The translations under genes were made by a program, and so were the position numbers. Of a stretch of 40,847 nt of DNA, positions 301-27,228 are shown in pieces. Within the stretch, counting starts at the first letter, position 1. Each line of letters starts with the position of its first letter. Under the pieces are notes generated by a model. The model made no database searches and was not told the DNA's origin. It saw nothing but the letters and a program-made list of their open reading frames with translations. This DNA is from a virus: UHGV virus genome UHGV-0390358. The stretch is one strand, 5' to 3'.

Positions 301-385
301 TATTCGGAATTGTATTGTTCGGAAGAATAATAAAATAACTAGTTAATTTGTGGATTGGTGCTGTTTTTCCATGATAGGGGTAATT

Positions 386-766
386 ATGAGAAAAGTATTT
401 TTGATTTTTGGATTTATGCTTCTCGTTGGATGCCAGTCAGCTGCACAGTTTGAAAGAAATATGCTTACGTGGCGCGGGCAGAGTATAGACGCAATGGTTC
501 AGCAGTGGGGGTATCCTCAGGGAGAGCTTACATCTCCAGATGGAAACAGAGTGTATGTTTACTCAAGCTCTGGTAGTTATAACGTACCACAAACCACAAC
601 GTATAATACTACGTCTAATCTAATTGGTAATACTATATATTCAAACACATACGCAACAACTGATGGCGGTTATACACTCCATTTCAGTTGCTCTGTTTAC
701 GTTGAGTTTGGTGCTGATAAGATTATTAAAAATGTTACATGGCGCGGTAATAATTGCGTTGCGTGA
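386..766 (+). CDS. Phage-encoded lipoprotein (signal peptide + lipobox LLVGC), unknown function
   Basis: ATG at 386 preceded by AGGGG; N-terminus MRKVFLIFGFMLLVGCQS; AT-rich; followed by terminator. Confidence 0.6.
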   Translation: MRKVFLIFGFMLLVGCQSAAQFERNMLTWRGQSIDAMVQQWGYPQGELTSPDGNRVYVYSSSGSYNVPQTTTYNTTSNLIGNTIYSNTYATTDGGYTLHFSCSVYVEFGADKIIKNVTWRGNNCVA

Positions 767-774
767 CATGTCAC

Positions 775-800
775 AGGCCGCTTTCGCGGCCTTGTTTTTA
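775..800 (+). terminator. Rho-independent terminator after lipoprotein gene
   Basis: AGGCCGC-tttc-GCGGCCT stem-loop followed by TGTTTTTA. Confidence 0.5.
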
Positions 801-2511: not shown

Positions 2512-2905
2512 AGTGATCACCTTTGTAGTTAGGTTAATCACCACTACCGACGCCAATCGGTTGGTGGTGAACTGTGCAGGGTTGGCGTAACCGGCTACAA
2601 AGGACCCGGCGCACCTTTCGGTGCCCCCACACAGCCCACCATAGAATAGGTGCGCTTTACACATAAAAAAACCGCTTATGCGGCATATGTGCCTCTGTAG
2701 TAACCCGGGACGCCAATCCCGGCACTGGATTTTGCCAGTGCCCGATTACTATGGCACAAGAGGAGTGCGATGTAAATTTACCGCAAAGGTAATGATAAGC
2801 GCGAAGAAATATTAAAATCAACCGTATTTGGTTGATTGCGTTTAACGCTTGATCACCTGAAAGCAAGATATTACCTTTAAGGTAATGTTATTGTGAGGAA
2901 AAGCA

Positions 2906-4110: not shown

Positions 4111-7100
4111 ATGACGGTCTCAACCGAAGTTGACCACAACGAATACACCGGTAACGGCGTTACGACATCGTTTCCGTATACTTTTCGAATTTTCAGAAAA
4201 TCAGACCTGGTTGTTCAGGTGTCTGACCTGAACGGGAACGTAACAGAATTGGTTCTGGATACCGGTTATACGGTAACTGGGGCGGGCACTTATAGTGGCG
4301 GTTCTGTGGTTCTTCCGTCTCCGCTTGCTACTGGATGGCGAATTACGATAGATCGTGTGCTTGATGTAGTGCAGGAGACAGACCTTCGCAATCAGGGAAA
4401 ATTTTTCCCCGAAGTGCATGAAGATGCCTTTGACTACCTGACGATGCTGATCCAGCAATGTTTTGGGTGGTTCAGACGTGCATTGATGAAACCATCTTTG
4501 CTTGCAAAATATTACGATGCAAAGCAAAACAAAATTTCTAACCTTGCAGATCCATCATTTGAGCAGGACGCTGTAAATAATCGCTCAATGCGTAATTATG
4601 TCGATGCTGCAATCGCCGGGGTTGTTGGTGGTTTTGGTTGGTTTATTCAGTATGGTTCTGGGGCTGTGTACCGAACGTTCCAGGATAAAATGCGTGATGC
4701 TATTAGCCCCAAAGATTTTGGAGCTGTTGGTGATGGTATAAATGACGATTCCACTGCAATAAGCGCGTGCCTTGAAGCCTCATCTCCAGTTTATAAAATT
4801 GACGGATTAGGGCTTACTTTTAAAGTATCAACTCTTCCGGATGTCAGTCGATTTAAAAATGCTCGTTTTTTATTTGAGAGAATACCGGGTCAGCCTCTTT
4901 TTTATGCTTCTGAAGATTTTATCCAGGGAGAGTTATTTAAAATTACAGATACACCGTGGTACAACGCCTGGACGCAGGATAAAACGTTTGTATATGACAA
5001 TGTCATCTATGCGCCTTTTATGGCTGGAGACCGCCATGGTGTAAATAACCTCCATGTTGCATGGGTTCGCTCAGGAGATGACGGGAAGACCTGGACAACG
5101 CCGGAATGGCTTACAGATTTACATGAAAACTATCCCACAGTTAACTATCACTGCATGTGTATGGGGGTTGTCAGAAATCGCCTTTTTGCTGTAATTGAGA
5201 CGCGGACCGTGAGCGGAAATAAACTGCAGGTTGCAGAGTTGTGGGATCGCCCAATGAGTCGCAGCCTTCGCGTTTATGGTGGTATAACGAAAGCAGCAAA
5301 TCAGCAAGTCGCTTATATTCGCATTACTGATCACGGATTATTTGCTGGTGATTTTGTCAACTTCTCAAACTCTGGTGTTACAGGTGTTACCGGGAATATG
5401 ACGGTGACTACTGTTATTGATAAAAATACTTTTACAGTTACGACGCAAAATACCCAGGATGTGGATCAGAATAACGAGGGTAGATACTGGAGTTTTGGTA
5501 CATCATTTCACTCTTCACCATGGAGAAAAACCAGTCTTGGAACTATTCCTTCTTTTGTTGACGGAAGCACTCCTGTTACTGAGATTCACAGTTTTGCGAC
5601 GATTAGCGATAACAGTTTTGCTGTTGGCTACCATAATGGTGATATTGGTCCACGCGAGCTTGGGATACTCTATTTCTCTGATGCTTTCGGTTCTCCTGGT
5701 AGCTTTGTTCGCAGACGCATACCTGCAGAATATGAGGCGAATGCATCTGAGCCATGTGTAAAATATTATGATGGCATTCTGTATCTGACGACCAGGGGGA
5801 CATTAAGTACTCAACCCGGTAGTTCATTGCACAGAAGCTCTGATTTAGGTACATCATGGAATTCTCTTCGCTTCCCAAATAATGTTCATCACTCAAACCT
5901 TCCTTTTGCCAAAGTTGGCGATGAGCTGATTATTTTTGGCAGTGAGCGCGCATTTGGTGAGTGGGAAGGAGGAGAGCCTGATAACCGTTATGCAGGAAAT
6001 TATCCAAGAACATTTATGACCAGAGTTAACGTCAATGAGTGGAGTCTGGATAATGTAGAGTGGGTTAATGTTACTGATCAGATTTATCAGGGCGGAATAG
6101 TTAACTCTGCGGTTGGTGTTGGTTCAGTTTGTATCAAAGACAACTGGCTGTACTACATTTTCGGTGGGGAAGACTTTCTAAACCCATGGAGCATAGGGGA
6201 TAACAACAGAAAATATCCTTATGTTCACGATGGTCACCCGGCTGATTTGTATTGTTTCAGGGTGAAAATTAAACAGGAAGAATTTGTTTCAAGGGATTTT
6301 GTCTACGGAGCCACTCCTAACAGAACGCTTCCTACTTTTATGTCGACGTCAGGCGTGAGGACGGTTCCTGTACCCGTTGATTTCACAGATGATGTTGCCG
6401 TCCAGTCACTGACTGTCCATGCAGGTACATCAGGACAAGTTCGCGCGGAAGTCAAACTTGAGGGTAATTACGCCATTATTGCGAAGAAAGTACCGTCTGA
6501 TGATGTTACCGCTCAGAGATTAATCGTTAGCGGCGGTGAAACAACGTCTTCAGCAGATGGTGCAATGATAACGTTGCATGGTTCCGGAAGCAGTACTCCA
6601 CGTCGCGCGGTATATAACGCACTCGAACATCTTTTTGAGAACGGAGATGTTAAACCTTATCTTGATAATGTAAATGCTCTTGGTGGTCCGGGAAACAGGT
6701 TCTCGACAGTTTATCTTGGCTCCAATCCTGTGGTTACCAGTGACGGAACATTAAAGACAGAGCCGGTCTCTCCTGACGAAGCATTGCTGGATGCCTGGGG
6801 TGACGTCAGGTATATCGCTTATAAATGGCTGAACGCTGTCGCTATAAAGGGGGAAGAAGGGGCGAGGATACATCATGGTGTAATCGCGCAGCAACTTCGT
6901 GATGTTCTTATTTCTCACGGACTCATGGAAGAAGAAAGCACAACATGCCGCTATGCCTTTCTTTGCTATGACGATTATCCCGCAGTATATGATGACGTCA
7001 TTACTGGCCAAAGGGAAATGCCGCTGACTGATAATGACGGGAGCATCATTGTTGATGAGGATGATAATCCAGTGATGGTAATGGAAGACATCATTGAGCG

Positions 7101-9643: not shown

Positions 9644-10894
9644 GTGCTTACCGATACAAAATTAAAAAACCTCAAGCCGCAGGACAAACTGTACAAGGTC
9701 TCCGATCGTGACGGGCTGTATGTAGCTGTGCTTACGTCAGGCACGGTCTCGTTTCGCTATGACTACCGTATCAACGGTCGCCGCGAAACACTGGTAATCG
9801 GGCAGTATGGGCGTGACGGTATCAGCCTGGCAGAAGCGCGAGAAGAACTGATTGCTGCAAAGAAGCTGCTTAAAGCAGGCCAGTCACCGGCTGCGGCTAA
9901 ACGTGACGGTATCAAAAAGATTCGTGGTGCCGAGACGTTTGCGGTACATACCGACAGTTATATGAAACACGTCATCCTGGCTGACAGTACCCGCGCAATG
10001 AAACAGGCGGTGATCGACCGTGACATACTTCCGGTTCTTGGCAATAAAATGATGGCTGAAATTACCACATCGATGGTTCGTGATTTGTGTGACCGGATTG
10101 TCGAACGCGGTGGCCGGGCAACAGCAGTACAGGCCAGGGAGATCATCAGCAGCGTATACCGTCACGCCAATGACCGTGGTCATGGTTTGTTTAATCCTGC
10201 GGCTGACATTAAACCTTCGTCTATCGCCATATTTAAACCACGAGAGCGAACACTGACACCAGAAGAAATTGGCCTGTTCTTCCGCACGCTGGATGCCATT
10301 GGTGCTATGGGCACTATGAAAATGGCTTTAAAGCTGGTGCTTATCACTATGGTTCGTAAAGGCGAATTCACCAATGCAACGTGGGATGAAATAGATTTTA
10401 AAAAATGGACATGGACAATTCCTTCAGACCGCATGAAGGGAAGCCGGGCGCACGTTATTTACCTGCCTAAACAGGCACAGGATATATTGGTTGGGTTGCA
10501 GATGTGCGCTGGTGGAAGTGAATATCTGGTTCCTGGTCGTTACAATTTCCGGAAGCCATTATCTAATGCCGCGCTGAACTCTCTGATCGACAGAACGGTG
10601 AAAATAATAAATGAAGATGGTGAGCATATTCAGGACTTCACCGTACACGATATGCGCCGTACAGCCAGTACGTTGTTGCATGAGGCTGGTTATCCTTCAG
10701 ACTGGATTGAAAAGGCTCTGGCACATGAGCAGAAAGGTGTGCGCGCCGTATATAACAAAGCGGAATACGCCAGACAGCGCGCCTACATGTTGCAGCAGTG
10801 GGCCGATATGATTGATTCCTGGATTAACGGGGAGCATACGGATCTGATTCCGTTCTCCCCGTCGAAGTTTGAGAAGTGGATGGCGGGGGAATAA
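9644..10894 (+). CDS. int: Tyrosine site-specific integrase
   Basis: GTG start at 9644; N-terminal LTDTKLKNLKP...YRINGRRETLVIG arm-binding-type domain; C-terminal catalytic region HDMRRTASTLL...AVYNKAEY. Confidence 0.85.
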   Translation: MLTDTKLKNLKPQDKLYKVSDRDGLYVAVLTSGTVSFRYDYRINGRRETLVIGQYGRDGISLAEAREELIAAKKLLKAGQSPAAAKRDGIKKIRGAETFAVHTDSYMKHVILADSTRAMKQAVIDRDILPVLGNKMMAEITTSMVRDLCDRIVERGGRATAVQAREIISSVYRHANDRGHGLFNPAADIKPSSIAIFKPRERTLTPEEIGLFFRTLDAIGAMGTMKMALKLVLITMVRKGEFTNATWDEIDFKKWTWTIPSDRMKGSRAHVIYLPKQAQDILVGLQMCAGGSEYLVPGRYNFRKPLSNAALNSLIDRTVKIINEDGEHIQDFTVHDMRRTASTLLHEAGYPSDWIEKALAHEQKGVRAVYNKAEYARQRAYMLQQWADMIDSWINGEHTDLIPFSPSKFEKWMAGE

Positions 10895-20670: not shown

Positions 20671-20944
20671 CCTGCAACTTGCCGTCAAAGGTGAATACTT
20701 CGATGCCATGATTCGCGGGGAGAAAACGGAAGAGTATCGCCTGTGTAATGACTACTGGAAAAAGCGCCTCGTTAACCGTAAGCATGACCGCCTGATTATC
20801 ACAAAGGGATATCCGAAGCGCGACGATTCCAGCCGCAGAATAGACGTCCCGTATGAAGGGTATGAAATCAAGACAATCACACATCCGCACTTCGGCGATA
20901 AACCGGTAAAGGTGTTCGCGATAAAGGTAAATATTGATGGCTAA
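20663..20944 (+). CDS. Small protein, possibly ASCH/PUA-like fold
   Basis: GTG start overlapping previous stop; ...YFDAMIRGEKTEEYRL...; weak assignment. Confidence 0.35.
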   Translation: MANLQLAVKGEYFDAMIRGEKTEEYRLCNDYWKKRLVNRKHDRLIITKGYPKRDDSSRRIDVPYEGYEIKTITHPHFGDKPVKVFAIKVNIDG

Positions 20945-21275
20945 ATCAGCAGCAGAGCGCAAAGCCGCTCAGAGAGCCAGACAAGCTGCATCTGGTGTGC
21001 GTAAACTGGAGATTGTGCTTGATGCTCAGGAAATTGAAATGCTGGAGCGTAACTGTGCCACGCGTCGCCCCGGGCGTGCGCCTTACGAATTTGGTGAGTA
21101 TATAGCGTTACTGATCCGCCAGGATGATGCACGCGTGCGCGGGCGTATAAAATCGATCAGCAGAAAACGTTGCGGTAAGTGCGGCGAGAGAGTTCCAGTT
21201 AATTCATGCCCGTGTAATGGTGACTCGCAATGCTGGGTGACTAAAGGCTGGCATGAAACGAAATTAATAGTGTGA
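20937..21275 (+). CDS. Hypothetical protein with C-terminal Cys cluster
   Basis: ATG at 20937; C-terminal CGKCGERVPVNSCPCNGDSQC; stop lies inside the GTGACATGTCAC palindrome. Confidence 0.4.
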   Translation: MAKSAAERKAAQRARQAASGVRKLEIVLDAQEIEMLERNCATRRPGRAPYEFGEYIALLIRQDDARVRGRIKSISRKRCGKCGERVPVNSCPCNGDSQCWVTKGWHETKLIV

Positions 21276-21323
21276 CATGTCACGAGTAGATTATGCATGA
21301 TGAATTTGATGGTTTTGAATACT

Positions 21324-21349
21324 GCCGCCAACTATGGCGGCTTTATTTT
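21324..21349 (+). terminator. Rho-independent terminator between early-right genes and terminase operon
   Basis: GCCGCC-aactat-GGCGGC followed by TTTATTTT. Confidence 0.5.
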
Positions 21350-21392
21350 GCATGGTACTATTACCACAACGGTAACTATTACCACGGTGGTT

Positions 21393-21989
21393 ATGATGCC
21401 TGCTGAACCTAAAACCTATAAACGCAAATCAACGCAATTTAAGCCACTAACAGCAATGCAGGAGGCTTATTGCCAGTCATACATCAAAACGCCTGAAAAC
21501 CAGACTCAGGCAGCGATTAATGCAGGATTCTCCCCAAATACAGCGGCAGTTAAAGCCAGTGTCATGATGCGCGATGAACGCATTCAAAAACGGATTGCCG
21601 AGTTGATGGAGGAGCGCAACAAACGAATGCGCGTCAGTGCTGATTACGTTCTCATGCGCCTGGTGGAGATCGACCAGATGGACGTGATCGACATCCTCAA
21701 CGACGATGGGAGCCTTAAACCAATCCGTGAGTGGCCGAAAATCTGGCGCACTACGCTTAGTGGCTTTGATCTGTCATCGATCATCATGAACATGAACGAG
21801 GATTCGATAGAGACAATCCTCAAAAAAATTAAATGGCCTGACAAGGTGAAGAACCTTGAGCTGATTGGTAAGCATGTTGATGTCAACGCGTTCAAAGAAC
21901 GTCTGGATGTTAATGTGAATGTGACAATTGCTGATCGCATAGCAGCAGCCAGGAAGCGACTCAAAGAACGTCAGGATGGTAATCAGTGA
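21393..21989 (+). CDS. Terminase small subunit
   Basis: HTH-like ...QAAINAGFSPNTAAVKASVMMRDERIQKRIAEL; immediately upstream of and overlapping TerL; start taken at internal ATG 21393. Confidence 0.6.
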   Translation: MMPAEPKTYKRKSTQFKPLTAMQEAYCQSYIKTPENQTQAAINAGFSPNTAAVKASVMMRDERIQKRIAELMEERNKRMRVSADYVLMRLVEIDQMDVIDILNDDGSLKPIREWPKIWRTTLSGFDLSSIIMNMNEDSIETILKKIKWPDKVKNLELIGKHVDVNAFKERLDVNVNVTIADRIAAARKRLKERQDGNQ

Positions 21990-23455
21990 CAGATACATCG
22001 TTATCTCCTGAAGAGCAGTTGATCGAGGATATTGCAGGGTTCACTCACGATCCGCTTGGCTATGCCCTCTATGCGTTCCCGTGGGGGGAAGAGGGGACTG
22101 AACTGGCACATGCCACCGGCCCACGTCAATGGCAGGCTGATGCGTTCCGAGAGATACGTGATCACCTGCAGAATCCAGAGACGCGCTATCAGCCGCTTAT
22201 GCTGGCACGCGCTTCTGGTCACGGTATTGGTAAATCCGCATTTATCTCAATGCTGATCAACTGGGGCATGTCCACTTGCGAGGATTGTAAGGTCGTGGTG
22301 ACCGCCAACACCGACAACCAGCTACGAACGAAGACCTGGCCGGAAATTATCAAGTGGTCGAACCTTGCTATCACGAAAGACTGGTTTACCTGTACCGCTA
22401 CCGCGATGTACAGCAATGACCCTGGGCACGACAAGCGGTGGCGAGCTGACGCAATCCCTTGGTCTGAGCACAACACTGAGGCATTCGCCGGACTACACAA
22501 CGAGCGCAAACGCATCATCGTGGTATTCGATGAAGCGTCGAACATTGCGGATCTGGTGTGGGAAGTTGCCGAGGGTGCGCTAACGGACGAAGACACTGAG
22601 ATTATCTGGGTGGCGTTCGGAAACCCGACGCGTAATACCGGACGTTTCCGCGAATGTTTCCGCAAATATAAACACCGCTGGAAAACTGCGCAGATTGACA
22701 GCCGGACGGTGGAAGGCACCAACAAACAGCAGTTGCAGAAATGGGTTGATGACTACGGGGAAGACAGCGACTTCGTTAAAATCCGTGTGCGTGGAATATT
22801 CCCTGATGCATCTGAATTGCAGTTTATCCCTACCGGTCTTACTGACGAGGCAATGAAACGGGTGGTAACCGCTGCGCAGGTTGCACATGCTCCGGTGATA
22901 ATTGGCGTTGACCCGGCATACTCCGGCGTTGATGACGCTGTGATATACCTGCGGCAGGGGCTACACAGTAAGGTGCTGTGGACTGGCAACAAGACCACTG
23001 ACGATCTGATAATGGCGAAGCGTATCGCTGACTTTGAAGACCAGTACCAGGCTGACGCAGTGTTCATCGACTTCGGTTACGGAACTGGTCTGAAGTCAAT
23101 CGGTGACGGCTGGGGTCGTACATGGCAACTTGTTCCGTTTGGTGGCGCGTCTACTGACCCGCAGATGCTCAACAAGCGTGGGGAGATGTTCAACTCATGC
23201 AAGACATGGCTGAGGCTGGGCGGCATGCTTGATGACCAGGAAACAGCGGACGACCTGTCGGCGGCAGAGTACAAAGTTCGAGTGGACGGTAAAATCGTTA
23301 TCGAACCGAAGGAAGATATCAAGGAGCGGCTTGGGCGTTCTCCTGGTAAAGGCGATGCGCTACTGCTGACGTTTGCGTTCCCGGTAGCCAAGAAAACTAA
23401 TGACCCACGGCAGCAGCAGGGCAGGGCTATAACAGACTATGACCCATTTGAATGA
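21986..23455 (+). CDS. Terminase large subunit
   Basis: GTG start overlapping TerS stop; Walker A-like ARASGHGIGKSAF and Walker B-like IIVVFDEAS; 489 aa. Confidence 0.85.
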   Translation: MTDTSLSPEEQLIEDIAGFTHDPLGYALYAFPWGEEGTELAHATGPRQWQADAFREIRDHLQNPETRYQPLMLARASGHGIGKSAFISMLINWGMSTCEDCKVVVTANTDNQLRTKTWPEIIKWSNLAITKDWFTCTATAMYSNDPGHDKRWRADAIPWSEHNTEAFAGLHNERKRIIVVFDEASNIADLVWEVAEGALTDEDTEIIWVAFGNPTRNTGRFRECFRKYKHRWKTAQIDSRTVEGTNKQQLQKWVDDYGEDSDFVKIRVRGIFPDASELQFIPTGLTDEAMKRVVTAAQVAHAPVIIGVDPAYSGVDDAVIYLRQGLHSKVLWTGNKTTDDLIMAKRIADFEDQYQADAVFIDFGYGTGLKSIGDGWGRTWQLVPFGGASTDPQMLNKRGEMFNSCKTWLRLGGMLDDQETADDLSAAEYKVRVDGKIVIEPKEDIKERLGRSPGKGDALLLTFAFPVAKKTNDPRQQQGRAITDYDPFE

Positions 23456-23458
23456 TTT

Positions 23459-24283
23459 TTACTTTTGTGTTTTTGATTTTCTTTGATAGGTGGAATTTAA
23501 ATCACCATTTATATTTACTAGAGGATTATTCAATAATGTACTGATTTCTGGATTGTTAATTCCAGTAACGCCAAGTTTCTTTACGGACTCATTAAAGTCT
23601 TGTAATGATTTTAGACCTACAAGCCCATTAGCAATTGTATTATTTGTTGCCAAAGGAATGTTTTTCTTATAGGACTCATATTCGTTTTTTAAATTTTTGT
23701 GAGTTTTTTCTAGATTTTCTAGTTTAGATGTTGTTTCATCAATAACCTTAGATAATTCTAAAATACGAGCTTGTGCTGCGCGCAGTTCTGTCTCCCTCTC
23801 TTTCAATTCAGATGTGAGTTGTCCCATTCTGTCTTTTGAAAGAATTATTTCCTCTTTCATGTCTTGAATGTTTTTTTCAGCGCCTGTTTTTACTTTTTCG
23901 TAAGTAATGTCTTTTTTAGCCAGCAATCTCTGTAGCCGTGTTTCACGTTGTATTTTTCTTGCCTTCCGGTGGTTTTCGATTGAGTCATTATTATCAAGAG
24001 GTTTTGCTTGCCATACGTTAATGATATTGTTTACCCATGGTAATAGGCAGCAGATAGTAATTACAGATAAGCATGGATAAAACATAACAGTTTTCCATGT
24101 GCTGTTATCTGAGATGTATGAAATTTTATCTATTATATTTGATTTGCTAAAAAACAGATAAAGAAGTGATTTCCAGTTGAAGGCGCACCAGGACATAACA
24201 AAAGCACCAAGCACAGGGTTTTTAGCTCGATGCACGGCAGTATTGGCAGTAGATAAAAACAGCTCTTTGAACGATTCGAACAT
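23459..24283 (-). CDS. AT-rich accessory protein: N-terminal membrane segments + long coiled-coil; unknown function
   Basis: Opposite strand to flanking late genes; AT-rich composition unlike neighbours; consensus TATAAT -10 at 24309-24314 overlapping an operator palindrome; in-frame alternative starts at 24307 and 24337. Confidence 0.5.
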   Translation of the reverse strand: MFESFKELFLSTANTAVHRAKNPVLGAFVMSWCAFNWKSLLYLFFSKSNIIDKISYISDNSTWKTVMFYPCLSVITICCLLPWVNNIINVWQAKPLDNNDSIENHRKARKIQRETRLQRLLAKKDITYEKVKTGAEKNIQDMKEEIILSKDRMGQLTSELKERETELRAAQARILELSKVIDETTSKLENLEKTHKNLKNEYESYKKNIPLATNNTIANGLVGLKSLQDFNESVKKLGVTGINNPEISTLLNNPLVNINGDLNSTYQRKSKTQK

Positions 24284-24342
24284 ACTAATTACCTTAAAGT
24301 TTTTCATGATTATACCTTTAAGGTAATTTGTGGTCATCAGGC

Positions 24343-24367
24343 AAAAAAAATGCCCGGCGAACCGGGC
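24343..24367 (-). terminator. Rho-independent terminator downstream of the tRNA
   Basis: Minus strand GCCCGG-ttcg-CCGGGC followed by a run of 8 T. Confidence 0.45.
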
Positions 24368-24530
24368 GAACTGGAAGCAATGAGTTATGCCTTCCGTGGC
24401 TGTACGGGTTTACAGCATGAAGTCATCGCAATGGCGTCCTGCTGTAAAAAGGGCGGTGATAGGCCTTCAAGGGAAACCATCACCGCCAAGCCCCTGGAAC
24501 TTCTGGCATCACGGTCCTCAGGCGTGATTC

Positions 24531-24607
24531 TGGCGTGGCATGCAGGATTCGAACCTGCGACCAACCGCTTAGAAGGCGGTTGCTCTGTCCAACTGAGCTA
24601 ATGCCAC
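24531..24607 (-). tRNA. tRNA-Arg (anticodon UCU)
   Basis: Reverse complement folds as a 77-nt cloverleaf: 7-bp acceptor stem GTGGCAT/ATGCCAC, D-arm GCTC..GAGC, anticodon loop CTTCTAA, T-arm GCAGG-TTCGAAT-CCTGC, 3' CCA; differs from E. coli argU in the acceptor stem. Confidence 0.9.
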
Positions 24608-25255: not shown

Positions 25256-26935
25256 ATGGCGGAAACAACTAAAGAGCGATTGAACAAACAGTTCGCACAA
25301 CTTGAAAGCGAGCGTCAGTCGTTCGAGCCGCACTGGCGCGAGTTGAGTGATTACATCAACCCGCGTGGTTCCCGCTTTCTGACTTCTGAGGTTAACCGTA
25401 ACGATCGACGCAATACACGCATTATTGATTCGACCGGGACTATGGCGGCGCGCACTCTTGCCAGCGGCATGATGTCAGGCATAACAAGCCCCGCCCGTCC
25501 GTGGTTTCGCCTGGCTACGCCAGATCCTGAAATGATGGATTATGGCCCTGTTAAGTTGTGGCTTGAGGCGGTGCAGAACCGCATGAACGATATGTTCAAT
25601 AAGTCGAATCTCTATCAGTCGCTGCCGCAGTTATACGGAAGCCTCGGCACATACAGCACTGGTGCAATGGCAGTGCTGGAGGATGACGAGGACATCATTC
25701 GCACAATGCCATTCCCGATAGGCAGTTACTACCTGGCTAACTCACCTCGTGGCAGTGTGGACACCTGTTTTCGCAAGTTCTCTATGACTGTTCGTCAGCT
25801 TGTTCAGGAGTTCGGGCTAAATAACGTCAGCGAATCCGTAAAAAGCATGTGGGAAAGCGGCACCTACGAGAAGTGGATTGAAGTGATGCATTCGGTTTAC
25901 CCGAACATTGACCGCGATACATCGAAGCTGGATAGCAAGAACAAGCCATTCAAATCGGTTTATTACGAGGTTGGTGGCGATAACGACAAGTTGTTGCGTG
26001 AGTCCGGATTCGATGAGTTTCCAATTATGGCTCCGCGCTGGGAAGTTAACGGCGAAGATGTTTATGGATCATCATGCCCGGGTATGCTGGCGCTTGGACC
26101 TGTTAAGGCATTGCAGCTTCTCCAGAAGCGCAAGTCGCAGTTGATTGATAAAGCCACCAATCCGCCGATGGTTGCTCCGACTTCCCTCAAGAATCAGCGT
26201 GCCTCCCTTCTTCCTGGCGACATCACGTATATCGATCAGATTACTGGTCAGGATGGTTTCAGGCCTGCTTATCTGGTTAACCCCAGTACAGCAGATTTGG
26301 TGGCAGACATTCAGGACACTCGTCAAATCATTAACAGCGCCTACTTTGTCGATCTGTTCATGATGTTGCAGAACATCAATACCCGCTCGATGCCTGTTGA
26401 AGCGGTGATCGAAATGAAAGAAGAAAAACTTCTGATGTTGGGGCCGGTTCTGGAGCGTCTGAACGACGAATGTCTTAATCCTCTCATTGACCGCTCTTTC
26501 TCGATGATGGTGCGTAAAAACATGCTGCCGCCACCGCCAGACGTGATGGAAGGTATGCCCCTGAAGGTCGAATACATTTCCGTCATGGCTCAGGCGCAGA
26601 AGTCTATCGGCCTGTCCAGTCTGGCGTCCACGGTTAACTTCATTGGTCAACTTGCGCAAGCGAAACCAGAAGCTCTCGACAAACTCAACGTTGATCAGGC
26701 GATCGATGCATTCGCTGATATGTCCGGAGTGTCTCCAACCGTCATTGTTCCGCAGGAACAGGTTGAGCAGGCTCGCCAGCAACGGGCACAGCAACAACAG
26801 CAGCAACAAATGATGGCGATGGGGATGGCGGCGGCACAGGGTGCCAAGACGCTAAGCGAAGCTAAAACTTCGGATCCGAGTGTTTTGTCAGCTATGGCGA
26901 ATGCAGTTAGTGGTCAGGGTGGGCAATCACAATGA
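25256..26935 (+). CDS. Portal (head-to-tail connector) protein, T7 gp8-like
   Basis: 559 aa; position after terminase; Gln/Met/Ala-rich C-terminus QQQQQQMMAMGMAAAQG as in T7-type portals. Confidence 0.8.
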   Translation: MAETTKERLNKQFAQLESERQSFEPHWRELSDYINPRGSRFLTSEVNRNDRRNTRIIDSTGTMAARTLASGMMSGITSPARPWFRLATPDPEMMDYGPVKLWLEAVQNRMNDMFNKSNLYQSLPQLYGSLGTYSTGAMAVLEDDEDIIRTMPFPIGSYYLANSPRGSVDTCFRKFSMTVRQLVQEFGLNNVSESVKSMWESGTYEKWIEVMHSVYPNIDRDTSKLDSKNKPFKSVYYEVGGDNDKLLRESGFDEFPIMAPRWEVNGEDVYGSSCPGMLALGPVKALQLLQKRKSQLIDKATNPPMVAPTSLKNQRASLLPGDITYIDQITGQDGFRPAYLVNPSTADLVADIQDTRQIINSAYFVDLFMMLQNINTRSMPVEAVIEMKEEKLLMLGPVLERLNDECLNPLIDRSFSMMVRKNMLPPPPDVMEGMPLKVEYISVMAQAQKSIGLSSLASTVNFIGQLAQAKPEALDKLNVDQAIDAFADMSGVSPTVIVPQEQVEQARQQRAQQQQQQQMMAMGMAAAQGAKTLSEAKTSDPSVLSAMANAVSGQGGQSQ

Positions 26936-27228
26936 CAGATTACGAAGATGATCAACTGAAAGAAGAAAACGCCCGTAAGCAACGTGACATGGCACAGCGT
27001 GAAATTGATGACATTCGCTTTGTCATGAGCAGTGAACAGGGGCGTCGCGTTGTCTGGTCGGTGCTGGAGAAAGGCCGTGTGTTTTCCGCTATCTCACCGA
27101 TGGACGCTATGGCAATGGCATTTAATGAGGGGCAACGCAATCTGGCGCTGGAACTGTTTCAGCGCGTTATGGCGCATTGCCCTGAACAGTATTTGAAGAT
27201 GGCCAAAGAGGCCAGTGAACAGGAGTGA
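26932..27228 (+). CDS. Hypothetical protein (98 aa) between portal and scaffold
   Basis: ATG overlaps portal stop; unassigned. Confidence 0.4.
   Translation: MTDYEDDQLKEENARKQRDMAQREIDDIRFVMSSEQGRRVVWSVLEKGRVFSAISPMDAMAMAFNEGQRNLALELFQRVMAHCPEQYLKMAKEASEQE

What the first reader, a model, noticed from the sequence alone, without database searches (positions are those of the whole stretch)
763..774. Identical 12-bp palindrome GTGACATGTCAC at two gene ends
The same perfect palindrome occurs at 763-774 and 21272-21283. In both places it contains the TGA stop codon of the upstream gene in the same register and lies just before a rho-independent terminator, at an operon boundary. Two identical palindromic 12-mers in the same context in 40 kb are unlikely by chance; they may be module-boundary recombination sites, a regulator site or a processing signal.
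Basis: seen in the sequence. Interest (0 to 1): 0.35.

Follow-up and report, generated by a model that had tools for sequence, protein, structure and literature searches.

The report
Phage regulator's dispersed 12-bp binding site
The repeated palindrome GTGACATGTCAC is real and far from chance: it is a conserved DNA motif (GTGAC-NN-GTCAC) that travels through many temperate phages together with one small uncharacterised regulator gene, whose stop codon it overlaps, and it is most likely that protein's binding site, placed at the ends of transcription units.

Summary
GTGACATGTCAC occurs exactly at 763-774 and 21272-21283. Each copy supplies the TGA stop of the upstream ORF in the same register and precedes an intrinsic terminator.

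The window is an epsilon15/phiV10-like (Uetakevirus) temperate phage. Relatives (epsilon15, SPN1S, Tyrion) carry three exact copies at equivalent unit ends although the flanks differ. Junctions between conserved and variable sequence fall at the palindrome's edges.

The decisive result is the link to a gene. Site 2 overlaps the stop of a 112-aa protein (phrog_536, "transcriptional regulator", uncharacterised). Every phage examined that encodes a homologue carries 1-4 GTGAC-NN-GTCAC sites, against 0.01-0.04 expected: ZF40, N15, phiKO2, a Yersinia P2-like phage and a Vibrio phage.

In N15-like backbones all three sites switch together with the regulator allele. N15 and phiKO2 have GTGACTGGTCAC three times. 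A relative with another allele has GTGACATGTCAC three times, including the same position inside repA.

Best reading: a dimeric DNA-binding protein's cognate site, here marking unit boundaries. The effect on transcription is inferred, not shown. Single sites are dispensable. I found no prior description. Interest is moderate.

The parts
763..774 (.). Site 1: GTGACATGTCAC at the 3' end of the structural (late) gene block. It supplies the TGA stop (764-766) of the cargo gene 386-766.
   Evidence: It is conserved with the adjacent terminator in phiV10, ZX5, TL-2011b, Tyrion, PAS61 and others, while the upstream sequence differs. It is absent in EC.W1-9, which keeps the terminator.
775..800 (+). 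Intrinsic terminator (stem 775-792, then a T-run) ending the + strand structural unit. A convergent minus-strand short ORF ends at 801.
   Evidence: phiV10 annotates the homologous hairpin as a terminator.
386..766 (+). Lipoprotein-like cargo gene (phrog_3716) inserted between the gp21-like gene and site 1. It is absent at this place in phiV10.
   Evidence: (E 6.8e-64). Homology to relatives resumes at 761/762.
20937..21275 (+). Gene for the 112-aa phrog_536 protein (epsilon15 gp49 / phiV10 gp55 / N15 gp46 family). It has a basic N-terminus with a weakly RHH-like segment and a C-terminal Cys-rich, TraR-like zinc module. It is the proposed binder of the motif.
   Evidence: (E 8.3e-55).
21272..21283 (.). 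Site 2: GTGACATGTCAC overlapping the regulator's stop codon (21273-21275).
   Evidence: It is invariant in epsilon15, PAT1, SPNIS2 and Omnitron despite diverged flanks and variable last codons. The same register is seen in N15 and phiKO2 with the variant GTGACTGGTCAC.
21324..21350 (+). Intrinsic terminator between the early-right unit and terS.
   Evidence: epsilon15 annotates the homologous stem-loop as a terminator.
21360..21376 (.). Context only, a different motif: prophage-repressor operator-like inverted repeat ATTACC-N5-GGTAAC just upstream of terS.
   Evidence: (epsilon15 'repressor' protein_bind features).
21393..21989 (+). Context: terminase small subunit gene. The likely true start is ATG 21393, so the terminator 21324-41 is intergenic.
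   Evidence: (Terminase_2, E 1e-29, from residue 19).

Best explanation
GTGACATGTCAC is one allele of a family-wide motif, GTGAC-NN-GTCAC. It is most likely the cognate double-stranded DNA recognition site of the small phrog_536 protein encoded at 20937-21275, bound as a symmetric dimer. One site always sits at or just after the 3' end of the regulator's own gene. One to three further sites are dispersed in the same genome. In epsilon15-like phages the sites lie at the ends of transcription units, in the order gene end, palindrome, intrinsic terminator. These are also the slots where cargo genes are swapped. Three things are shown: conservation, association with the gene, and matched switching of all sites with the regulator allele. 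Two things are inferred: that the protein binds the site, and that binding acts on transcription at these boundaries. My preferred guess is a roadblock or insulator that, with the adjacent one-directional terminator, stops polymerases from both directions. An effect on read-through of the terminator is the alternative.
For: (1) Conservation with diverged flanks. epsilon15, SPN1S and Tyrion each have three exact copies at equivalent positions (regulator stop, after terL, end of the structural block). BUCT554 has two exact copies plus GTGACCTGTCAC at the regulator stop. The last two residues of the protein vary (IV, SV, AL, PM and others), yet the final codon keeps its third-base G so the motif stays intact.

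(2) The motif follows the gene into unrelated backbones. Myophage ZF40 (67% identity) has 3 exact copies, one of them 2 nt after the gene's TAA. A Yersinia P2-like phage has 1 copy. Vibrio phage K233 (31% identity) has GTGACGCGTCAC and GTGACACGTCAC twice. N15 and phiKO2 (35% identity) have GTGACTGGTCAC three times. Observed counts are 1-4 per genome against 0.01-0.04 expected.

(3) Matched switch. N15 and phiKO2 carry the TG-centre at the regulator stop, inside repA at +612 nt, and upstream of the antirepressor operon. The N15-like contig L112, with a different regulator allele, carries the AT-centre three times: at the regulator stop, at the aligned position inside repA (RVTSHD versus RVTCHD), and about 1.2 kb beyond the 3' end of repA. 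That third spot has a similar relative position, but its homology to the N15 site is not shown.

(4) Census of IMG/VR. 45 of 120 sampled loci holding the AT 12-mer encode a homologue within the few kb held, often 0-30 nt from the motif. For the TG 12-mer the figure is 12 of 120. Background is 1 AT copy in 1.07 Mb.

(5) Full dyad symmetry, including the positions flanking the centre, is what a dimer on duplex DNA reads. The N15 repA copy is inverted relative to transcription.

(6) The protein carries weak DNA-binding and zinc-module signals. These are RHH_5, RepB and RHH_1 hits in a few members, similarity to the YbfE RHH protein, and TraR-like similarity with hhalign probability 73%.

(7) Terminator adjacency. 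29 of 125 unique sites have an outward terminator within 45 nt, against 4.7% of random positions.
Against: No binding data exist. The fold assignment is weak: the AF2 monomer has pLDDT 63.6, Foldseek found nothing, and all Pfam hits are below threshold. The sites are not in promoter positions typical of RHH repressors. In other phages they lie inside ORFs, so the 'boundary' role may be specific to Uetakeviruses or incidental. Individual sites are dispensable in nature: the window lacks the post-terL site and EC.W1-9 lacks site 1. Some regulator-bearing loci have no motif next to the gene (Yersinia phage, L159, L169). The centre dinucleotide is not uniform in K233, so 'allele specificity' of the centre is suggestive only. 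Co-occurrence could also arise if gene and motif are both parts of one mobile cassette recognised by another factor.
Confidence: 0.55

Rival explanations
1. The motif is primarily a recombination 'linker': a short conserved sequence at module junctions where phages exchange cargo and modules, with no binding protein of its own.
For: Breakpoints coincide with the palindrome edges. Homology at site 1 starts at 761/762 in many relatives. At least six different cargo 3' ends abut the post-terL copy, and two alternative right flanks diverge 2 nt after site 2. Several different left flanks occur at site 1. These phages encode RecT/exonuclease recombinases.
Against: This does not explain copies inside essential coding sequence (repA). 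It does not explain the constant association with one gene across myo-, sipho- and podophage backbones. It does not explain the matched switch of all three sites with the regulator allele. Junctions also occur between palindrome and terminator, as expected for any conserved island flanked by cargo slots.
Confidence: 0.15
2. The motif acts in RNA. A small hairpin in the transcript is recognised by the arginine-rich N-terminus of the regulator (N/boxB-like) or by a nuclease. It would control read-through of the following terminator, processing, or translation of the next gene.
For: In Uetakeviruses the order along the transcript is always gene end, motif, terminator. In N15, phiKO2 and several IMG/VR loci the motif abuts the Shine-Dalgarno sequence of the next gene. 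The N-terminus is rich in Arg and Lys.
Against: The hairpin is only 4 bp, worth -1.2 kcal/mol and no better than shuffles. The invariant C5 and G8 cannot pair across a 2-nt loop, so their conservation fits duplex symmetry. The N15/phiKO2 repA copy is in the opposite orientation to transcription. There is no Rfam match at either site.
Confidence: 0.1
3. The motif is a site for a host protein, for example a MatP/matS-like or SlmA-like nucleoid factor. Phages would carry it to exploit host chromosome organisation.
For: The half-sites are identical to matS (GTGACRNYGTCAC; PMC6907758). The regulator family is found in phages of Escherichia, Salmonella, Klebsiella, Yersinia, Pectobacterium, Aeromonas and Vibrio. 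From my own knowledge these are MatP-containing hosts. K233 has one 13-bp copy with matS spacing.
Against: The spacing is 12 bp, not 13, in essentially all copies. The motif tracks a phage gene and switches with its allele. The SlmA resemblance is from memory and is limited to the outer GTGA/TCAC.
Confidence: 0.07
4. Chance repetition of a palindrome that happens to contain TGA.
For: Within this window alone, 4% of simulated sequences contain some repeated 12-nt palindrome, and repeated 12-mers in general are common.
Against: There is exact conservation at equivalent sites in many diverged genomes, with enrichment of 50-fold or more in all regulator-bearing genomes.
Confidence: 0.01

Closest known systems
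Ribbon-helix-helix phage/plasmid regulators and their palindromic operators (Arc, Mnt, CopG, MetJ type)
   Same: A small, probably dimeric protein paired with a short, perfectly dyad-symmetric DNA site, with several copies per replicon. There is weak sequence similarity of the N-terminal third to RHH families.
   Different: The sites are at gene 3' ends, before terminators or inside ORFs, rather than overlapping promoters. The protein carries an extra Cys-rich TraR-like module. The RHH fold is not established.
MatP/matS of E. coli (Ter macrodomain organiser)
   Same: Identical half-sites, GTGAC...GTCAC. A few dispersed sites are recognised by a small dimer. MatP uses an RHH domain (matS consensus from PMC6907758; MatP sequence verified against PDB 4D8J).
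   Different: The motif is 12 bp, not 13 bp. There is no detectable homology to MatP (hhalign probability 0.7%). The system is phage-borne and travels with a phage gene.
Centromere-like sites placed just downstream of the binding protein's gene (P1 parB-parS, F sopB-sopC)
   Same: The most constant site lies immediately 3' of the gene for its presumed binding protein, and further copies are scattered. N15-type phages also scatter their SopB sites (own knowledge; phiKO2 annotation).
   Different: No partner NTPase is linked to the gene. The sites are single 12-mers, not arrays. Integrated prophages carry the system too.
Lambda-type antitermination (N/nut, Q/qut)
   Same: The motif lies at the end of the early operon, immediately before a terminator that precedes late genes.
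   Different: There is no N or Q homology. No stable RNA hairpin forms. N15, phiKO2 and ZF40 carry the system alongside their own Q-like proteins.
Conserved 'linker'/boundary sequences of mosaic lambdoid and P22-like phages (modular evolution idea of Susskind and Botstein; own knowledge)
   Same: A short conserved island lies exactly at junctions between exchangeable segments.
   Different: Here the island is a specific palindrome tied to a specific gene. It also occurs inside coding sequence.

Membership tests
RHH regulator / operator pair | Protein with the ribbon-helix-helix fold (N-terminal beta-strand plus two helices, obligate dimer) | tested here: inconclusive
   There are only sub-threshold hits: RHH_5 (2 of 58 members, best E 0.013), RepB-RCR_reg, RHH_1, and NCBIfam YbfE at E 0.053. 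The AF2 monomer gives helices at 5-19, 30-42 and 52-67 with pLDDT 63.6. Foldseek found nothing.
RHH regulator / operator pair | Short dyad-symmetric DNA site present in the regulated replicon | tested here: met
   A perfect 12-bp palindrome occurs 2-3 times per genome and is conserved across relatives.
RHH regulator / operator pair | Operator overlaps the promoter it controls | tested here: not met
   The sites lie at stop codons, before terminators or inside ORFs. Promoter-like hexamers directly downstream were seen only in some relatives (L101, L107) and only weakly in the window.
RHH regulator / operator pair | Direct sequence-specific binding | not testable with these tools
   Needs EMSA or ChIP. 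Only co-occurrence and co-variation are available.
MatP/matS | 13-bp site GTGACRNYGTCAC | tested here: not met
   All window copies and nearly all copies in relatives have a 2-bp centre, so 12 bp. Consensus from PMC6907758.
MatP/matS | Binding protein homologous to MatP | tested here: not met
   hhalign of the family profile against E. coli MatP gives probability 0.7%. The MatP sequence was verified against 4D8J.
DksA/TraR C4 zinc-finger proteins | Helix followed by a CxxC...CxxC zinc module homologous to TraR | tested here: inconclusive
   Profile against PDB: TraR E 0.026, YbiI E 0.042. hhalign against TraR: probability 73%, residues 47-107 against 6-66. No Pfam hit at threshold. The Cys spacing differs.
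DksA/TraR C4 zinc-finger proteins | Free N-terminal acidic helix tip that enters the RNA polymerase secondary channel | tested here: not met
   The aligned helix is internal. It is preceded by about 46 residues and by RRPGR rather than acidic residues. The functional consequence is inference.
Lambda N/nut or Q/qut antitermination | N or Q family protein, with a stable boxB-type RNA hairpin or a promoter-embedded Q-binding element | tested here: not met
   No N or Q family hits. The hairpin is worth -1.2 kcal/mol. Q-like genes coexist with the system in N15, phiKO2 and ZF40.
Intrinsic terminator (as an integral part of it) | The element is required for the hairpin and U-tract structure | tested here: not met
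   The terminator hairpin folds independently of the palindrome. EC.W1-9 keeps the same terminator without the palindrome.
Mosaic boundary / linker sequence | A conserved short sequence exactly at junctions of exchangeable segments | tested here: met

The most novel reading that the evidence does not exclude
The phrog_536 protein is a site-tethered RNA-polymerase modifier. Its N-terminal part reads GTGAC-NN-GTCAC on DNA. Its TraR-like zinc module engages elongating polymerase as it crosses the site. This would switch the adjacent terminators, or the unit boundary, on or off. That would be a DNA-site-loaded elongation/termination factor of a kind not described, distinct from N, Q and PUT. A weaker variant: the system mimics or interferes with host MatP/matS.
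Probability: 0.1. Interest if true: 0.8.

Novelty: new member of a known kind. Interest (0 to 1): 0.5.

Why it matters
The result gives a testable function, and a precise DNA target, to a widespread but uncharacterised phage protein family. The family comprises 726 clusters at 90% identity and 154 phage records, from Vibrio to E. coli. It identifies a second dispersed regulatory motif in epsilon15-like phages, besides the prophage-repressor operators. It also explains why mosaic junctions and cargo slots in these phages are flanked by an invariant 12-mer. If the protein acts on elongating polymerase at unit boundaries, it would be a new way for phages to insulate or connect transcription units. 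The motif is also a practical marker for cargo ('moron') slots in prophage annotation.

Tried and rejected
1. Promoter idea, with GTGACA as a -35 element. The scan gives only a 9/12 match at site 2. Nothing comparable exists at site 1, where the terminator starts 1 nt after the palindrome. Rejected as a general explanation.

2. cos/pac site. The phiV10 record starts inside the palindrome, but only because the depositors began the record after the last stop codon. Other copies sit far from the terminase genes, and the system occurs in phages with other packaging modules.

3. MatP homology. Rejected.

4. Structure route. The AF2 model from a shallow alignment was low-confidence, and the Foldseek PDB search was meaningless.

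I used tblastn on the phage collection and IMG/VR pattern scans instead.

6. Literature. The 12-mer is in none of the searched papers. The epsilon15 genome paper was not held under the PMC id I recalled. The ZX5 paper does not mention it. Two other searches found nothing relevant.

7. PADLOC and Rfam. There are no hits for the protein or at the sites.

8. The 1-mismatch copy at 26984 lies inside an ORF and is within chance expectation. It is not counted as a site.

Full report
**Observation.** GTGACATGTCAC occurs exactly at 763-774 and 21272-21283. The only near copy is a 1-mismatch one at 26984, inside an ORF. ORF 350..766 and ORF 20934..21275 both end with the TGA formed by palindrome positions 2-4. 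Terminator-like hairpins with T-runs follow, at 775-792 (adjacent) and at 21324-21341 (40 nt downstream). The terS ORF as listed starts at 21297. The Terminase_2 match begins at residue 19 of a protein starting at ATG 21393, so the second terminator is intergenic. Within the window alone the repeat is only moderately surprising. There are ten palindromic 12-mers, about the expected number, and only this one is repeated. 8 of 200 Markov-2 simulations contain some repeated 12-nt palindrome.

**What the window is.** The window matches phiV10, ZX5, TL-2011b and epsilon15-type podophages (Uetakevirus) and is circularly permuted relative to the phiV10 record. Site 2 lies at the end of the early-right gene block, just before terS. 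Site 1 lies at the end of the structural block, next to convergent minus-strand cargo that includes a Bro-N antirepressor. The gene ending in site 2 encodes a 112-aa protein of phrog_536. Records annotate it as 'transcriptional regulator' (epsilon15 gp49, phiV10 gp55), with no characterised function.

**Conservation.** At site 2 the 12-mer is invariant in epsilon15, PAT1, SPNIS2 and Citrobacter phage Omnitron. The codons before it and the sequence after it differ. The protein's last two residues vary freely, but the final codon keeps a third-base G, which preserves the motif.

epsilon15, SPN1S and Tyrion each have three exact copies:
- one at the regulator stop;
- one at the end of the structural block, 0-2 nt before its terminator;
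- one between terL and a convergent minus-strand cargo gene.

At the third position the order on the minus strand is again gene end, palindrome, terminator. BUCT554 has two exact copies plus a one-base variant at the regulator stop. The window lacks the post-terL copy: terL's stop at 23455 abuts a different minus-strand ORF. EC.W1-9 lacks site 1 but keeps the terminator. Single sites are therefore dispensable, and the palindrome is not part of the terminator.

**Mosaic junctions.**
- Site 1: homology to many relatives begins at 761/762. phiV10 has palindrome plus terminator but a different upstream end. The window has an extra lipoprotein-like gene (386-766, phrog_3716), whose stop is supplied by the palindrome.
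- In 80 IMG/VR relatives, the post-terL copy is followed by at least six unrelated cargo 3' ends, starting 0-5 nt after the palindrome.
- Site 2 has two alternative right flanks that diverge 2 nt after it.

**Link to the regulator.** tblastn finds homologues in 154 phage records from Escherichia, Salmonella, Klebsiella, Yersinia, Pectobacterium, Aeromonas and Vibrio.

| Phage | Identity to window protein | Sites found |
|---|---|---|
| ZF40 (Pectobacterium myophage) | 67% | exact 12-mer 2 nt after the gene's TAA; two more in the early region |
| Yersinia P2-like phage | about 39% | one exact copy 3.4 kb downstream of the gene |
| N15 gp46 | 35% | stop overlapped, same register, by GTGACTGGTCAC; this variant occurs three times |
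| phiKO2 | about 37% | the same three sites as N15, at homologous positions, with diverged flanks |
| L112 (N15-like IMG/VR contig) | 53% | GTGACATGTCAC three times |
| Vibrio phage K233 | 31% | GTGACGCGTCAC, GTGACACGTCAC twice (one 19 nt before terS), and a 13-bp GTGACACCGTCAC overlapping a TGA stop |

In L112 the three copies lie at the regulator stop, at the aligned position inside repA (+612 nt; RVTCHD where N15 has RVTSHD), and about 1.2 kb beyond repA.

Across these genomes GTGAC-NN-GTCAC is observed 1-4 times against 0.01-0.04 expected. About 0.95 Mb of unrelated viral DNA holds four non-selected copies.

45 of 120 loci with the AT 12-mer encode a homologue within the few kb held, often 0-30 nt away. 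For the TG 12-mer the figure is 12 of 120, and those homologues are of the N15, P0172 or P0185 types. The AT 12-mer occurs once in 1.07 Mb of the other sample.

**DNA or RNA.**
- The isolated RNA hairpin is worth -1.2 kcal/mol, no better than shuffles.
- The invariant C5 and G8 cannot pair over a 2-nt loop.
- The N15/phiKO2 repA copy is inverted relative to transcription.
- Rfam has nothing at the sites.

Full dyad symmetry fits a dimer on duplex DNA.

**The protein.** It has an Arg/Lys-rich N-terminus and a segment weakly similar to RHH families. These similarities are NCBIfam YbfE at E 0.053, and RHH_5, RepB and RHH_1 in a few members. The C-terminal two-thirds resemble TraR/YbiI zinc-finger proteins: PDB profile search E about 0.03, hhalign probability 73%. 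There is no MatP homology. The AF2 model is poor and Foldseek was uninformative. The fold assignment therefore stays open.

**Mechanism.** Three things are shown: the motif is selected, it is tied to the gene, and it switches with the gene's allele. Binding by a dimer of the phrog_536 protein is inferred.

The action is not known. In Uetakeviruses all copies lie just upstream of a one-directional terminator at unit ends. In the census, 29 of 125 unique sites have such a terminator within 45 nt, against 4.7% of random positions. My preferred guess is a protein roadblock or insulator at unit boundaries. Control of read-through is the alternative.

The late units have their own prophage-repressor operators. 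TTACC-N5-GGTAA occurs 16 times in the window, including 21361 upstream of terS. A late-activator role is therefore not required. N15, phiKO2 and ZF40 carry Q-like genes as well.

**Comparison and novelty.** The half-sites equal those of matS (GTGACRNYGTCAC; PMC6907758), but the spacing is one base shorter and the protein is unrelated to MatP. The system is best filed as a new, uncharacterised phage regulator and operator pair with unusual site placement. I found no description of the motif.

Noticed in passing
window 2560-2646 (-) and 2665-2741 (-): Rfam C4 antisense RNA (79.5 bits) and isrK Hfq-binding RNA (74.7 bits) lie at the 5' end of, and just upstream of, the Bro-N antirepressor ORF (1825-2664, -). 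This looks like a P1 c4 / N15 CA-RNA-type antisense control of the antirepressor.
   Followed up: no
window 1744, 2778, 2871, 3992, 14841, 14903, 15615, 17908, 17970, 21361, 24930 and others: The inverted repeat TTACC-N5-GGTAA occurs 16 times at up to 1 mismatch, against 0.67 expected. It matches the 'repressor' binding sites annotated in epsilon15 (ATTACC-N5-GGTAAT). Copies sit upstream of terS, the portal block and the tailspike gene. This suggests direct repressor control of several late units.
   Followed up: partly
window 23459-24607: The cargo slot after terL, where relatives carry the third palindrome, holds a 292-aa minus-strand ORF with no Pfam hit and a tRNA-Arg(tct) at 24531-24607 (-). 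The palindrome and its hairpin are missing here.
   Followed up: partly
window 386-766: A lipoprotein-like cargo gene with signal peptide MRKVFLIFGFMLLVGC (phrog_3716, function unknown). It is inserted at site 1 in this lineage only and borrows its stop codon from the palindrome.
   Followed up: partly
L340 (Vibrio phage K233) 6769-6781: A 13-bp copy, GTGACACCGTCAC, with the half-sites and 3-bp spacing of matS. It again overlaps a TGA stop in the same register and sits alongside three 12-bp copies.
   Followed up: no
L173 5030-5130; L146 about 10800-10860; L172 about 5860-5900; L136 4746-4790: Some IMG/VR contigs carry dense arrays of GTGAC / GTCAC half-sites around the 12-mer (for example GTGACATGTCACGTGACGCGTTACGTGACAGTCACAGTGACATGTCAC). 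These could be multi-site operators or origin-like iterons for the same protein family.
   Followed up: no
L094 3238 / L097 14390 / L112 5733 (repA of N15, phiKO2, L112): The motif is embedded in the replication gene repA, 612 nt from its start in N15 and L112, and costs one amino-acid change (Ser/Cys) between alleles. This hints that the regulator may act on replication-gene transcription, or on DNA there.
   Followed up: partly
window 26984-26995: A one-mismatch copy, GTGACATGGCAC, lies inside ORF 26932-27228. It is within chance expectation and was not examined in relatives.
   Followed up: no
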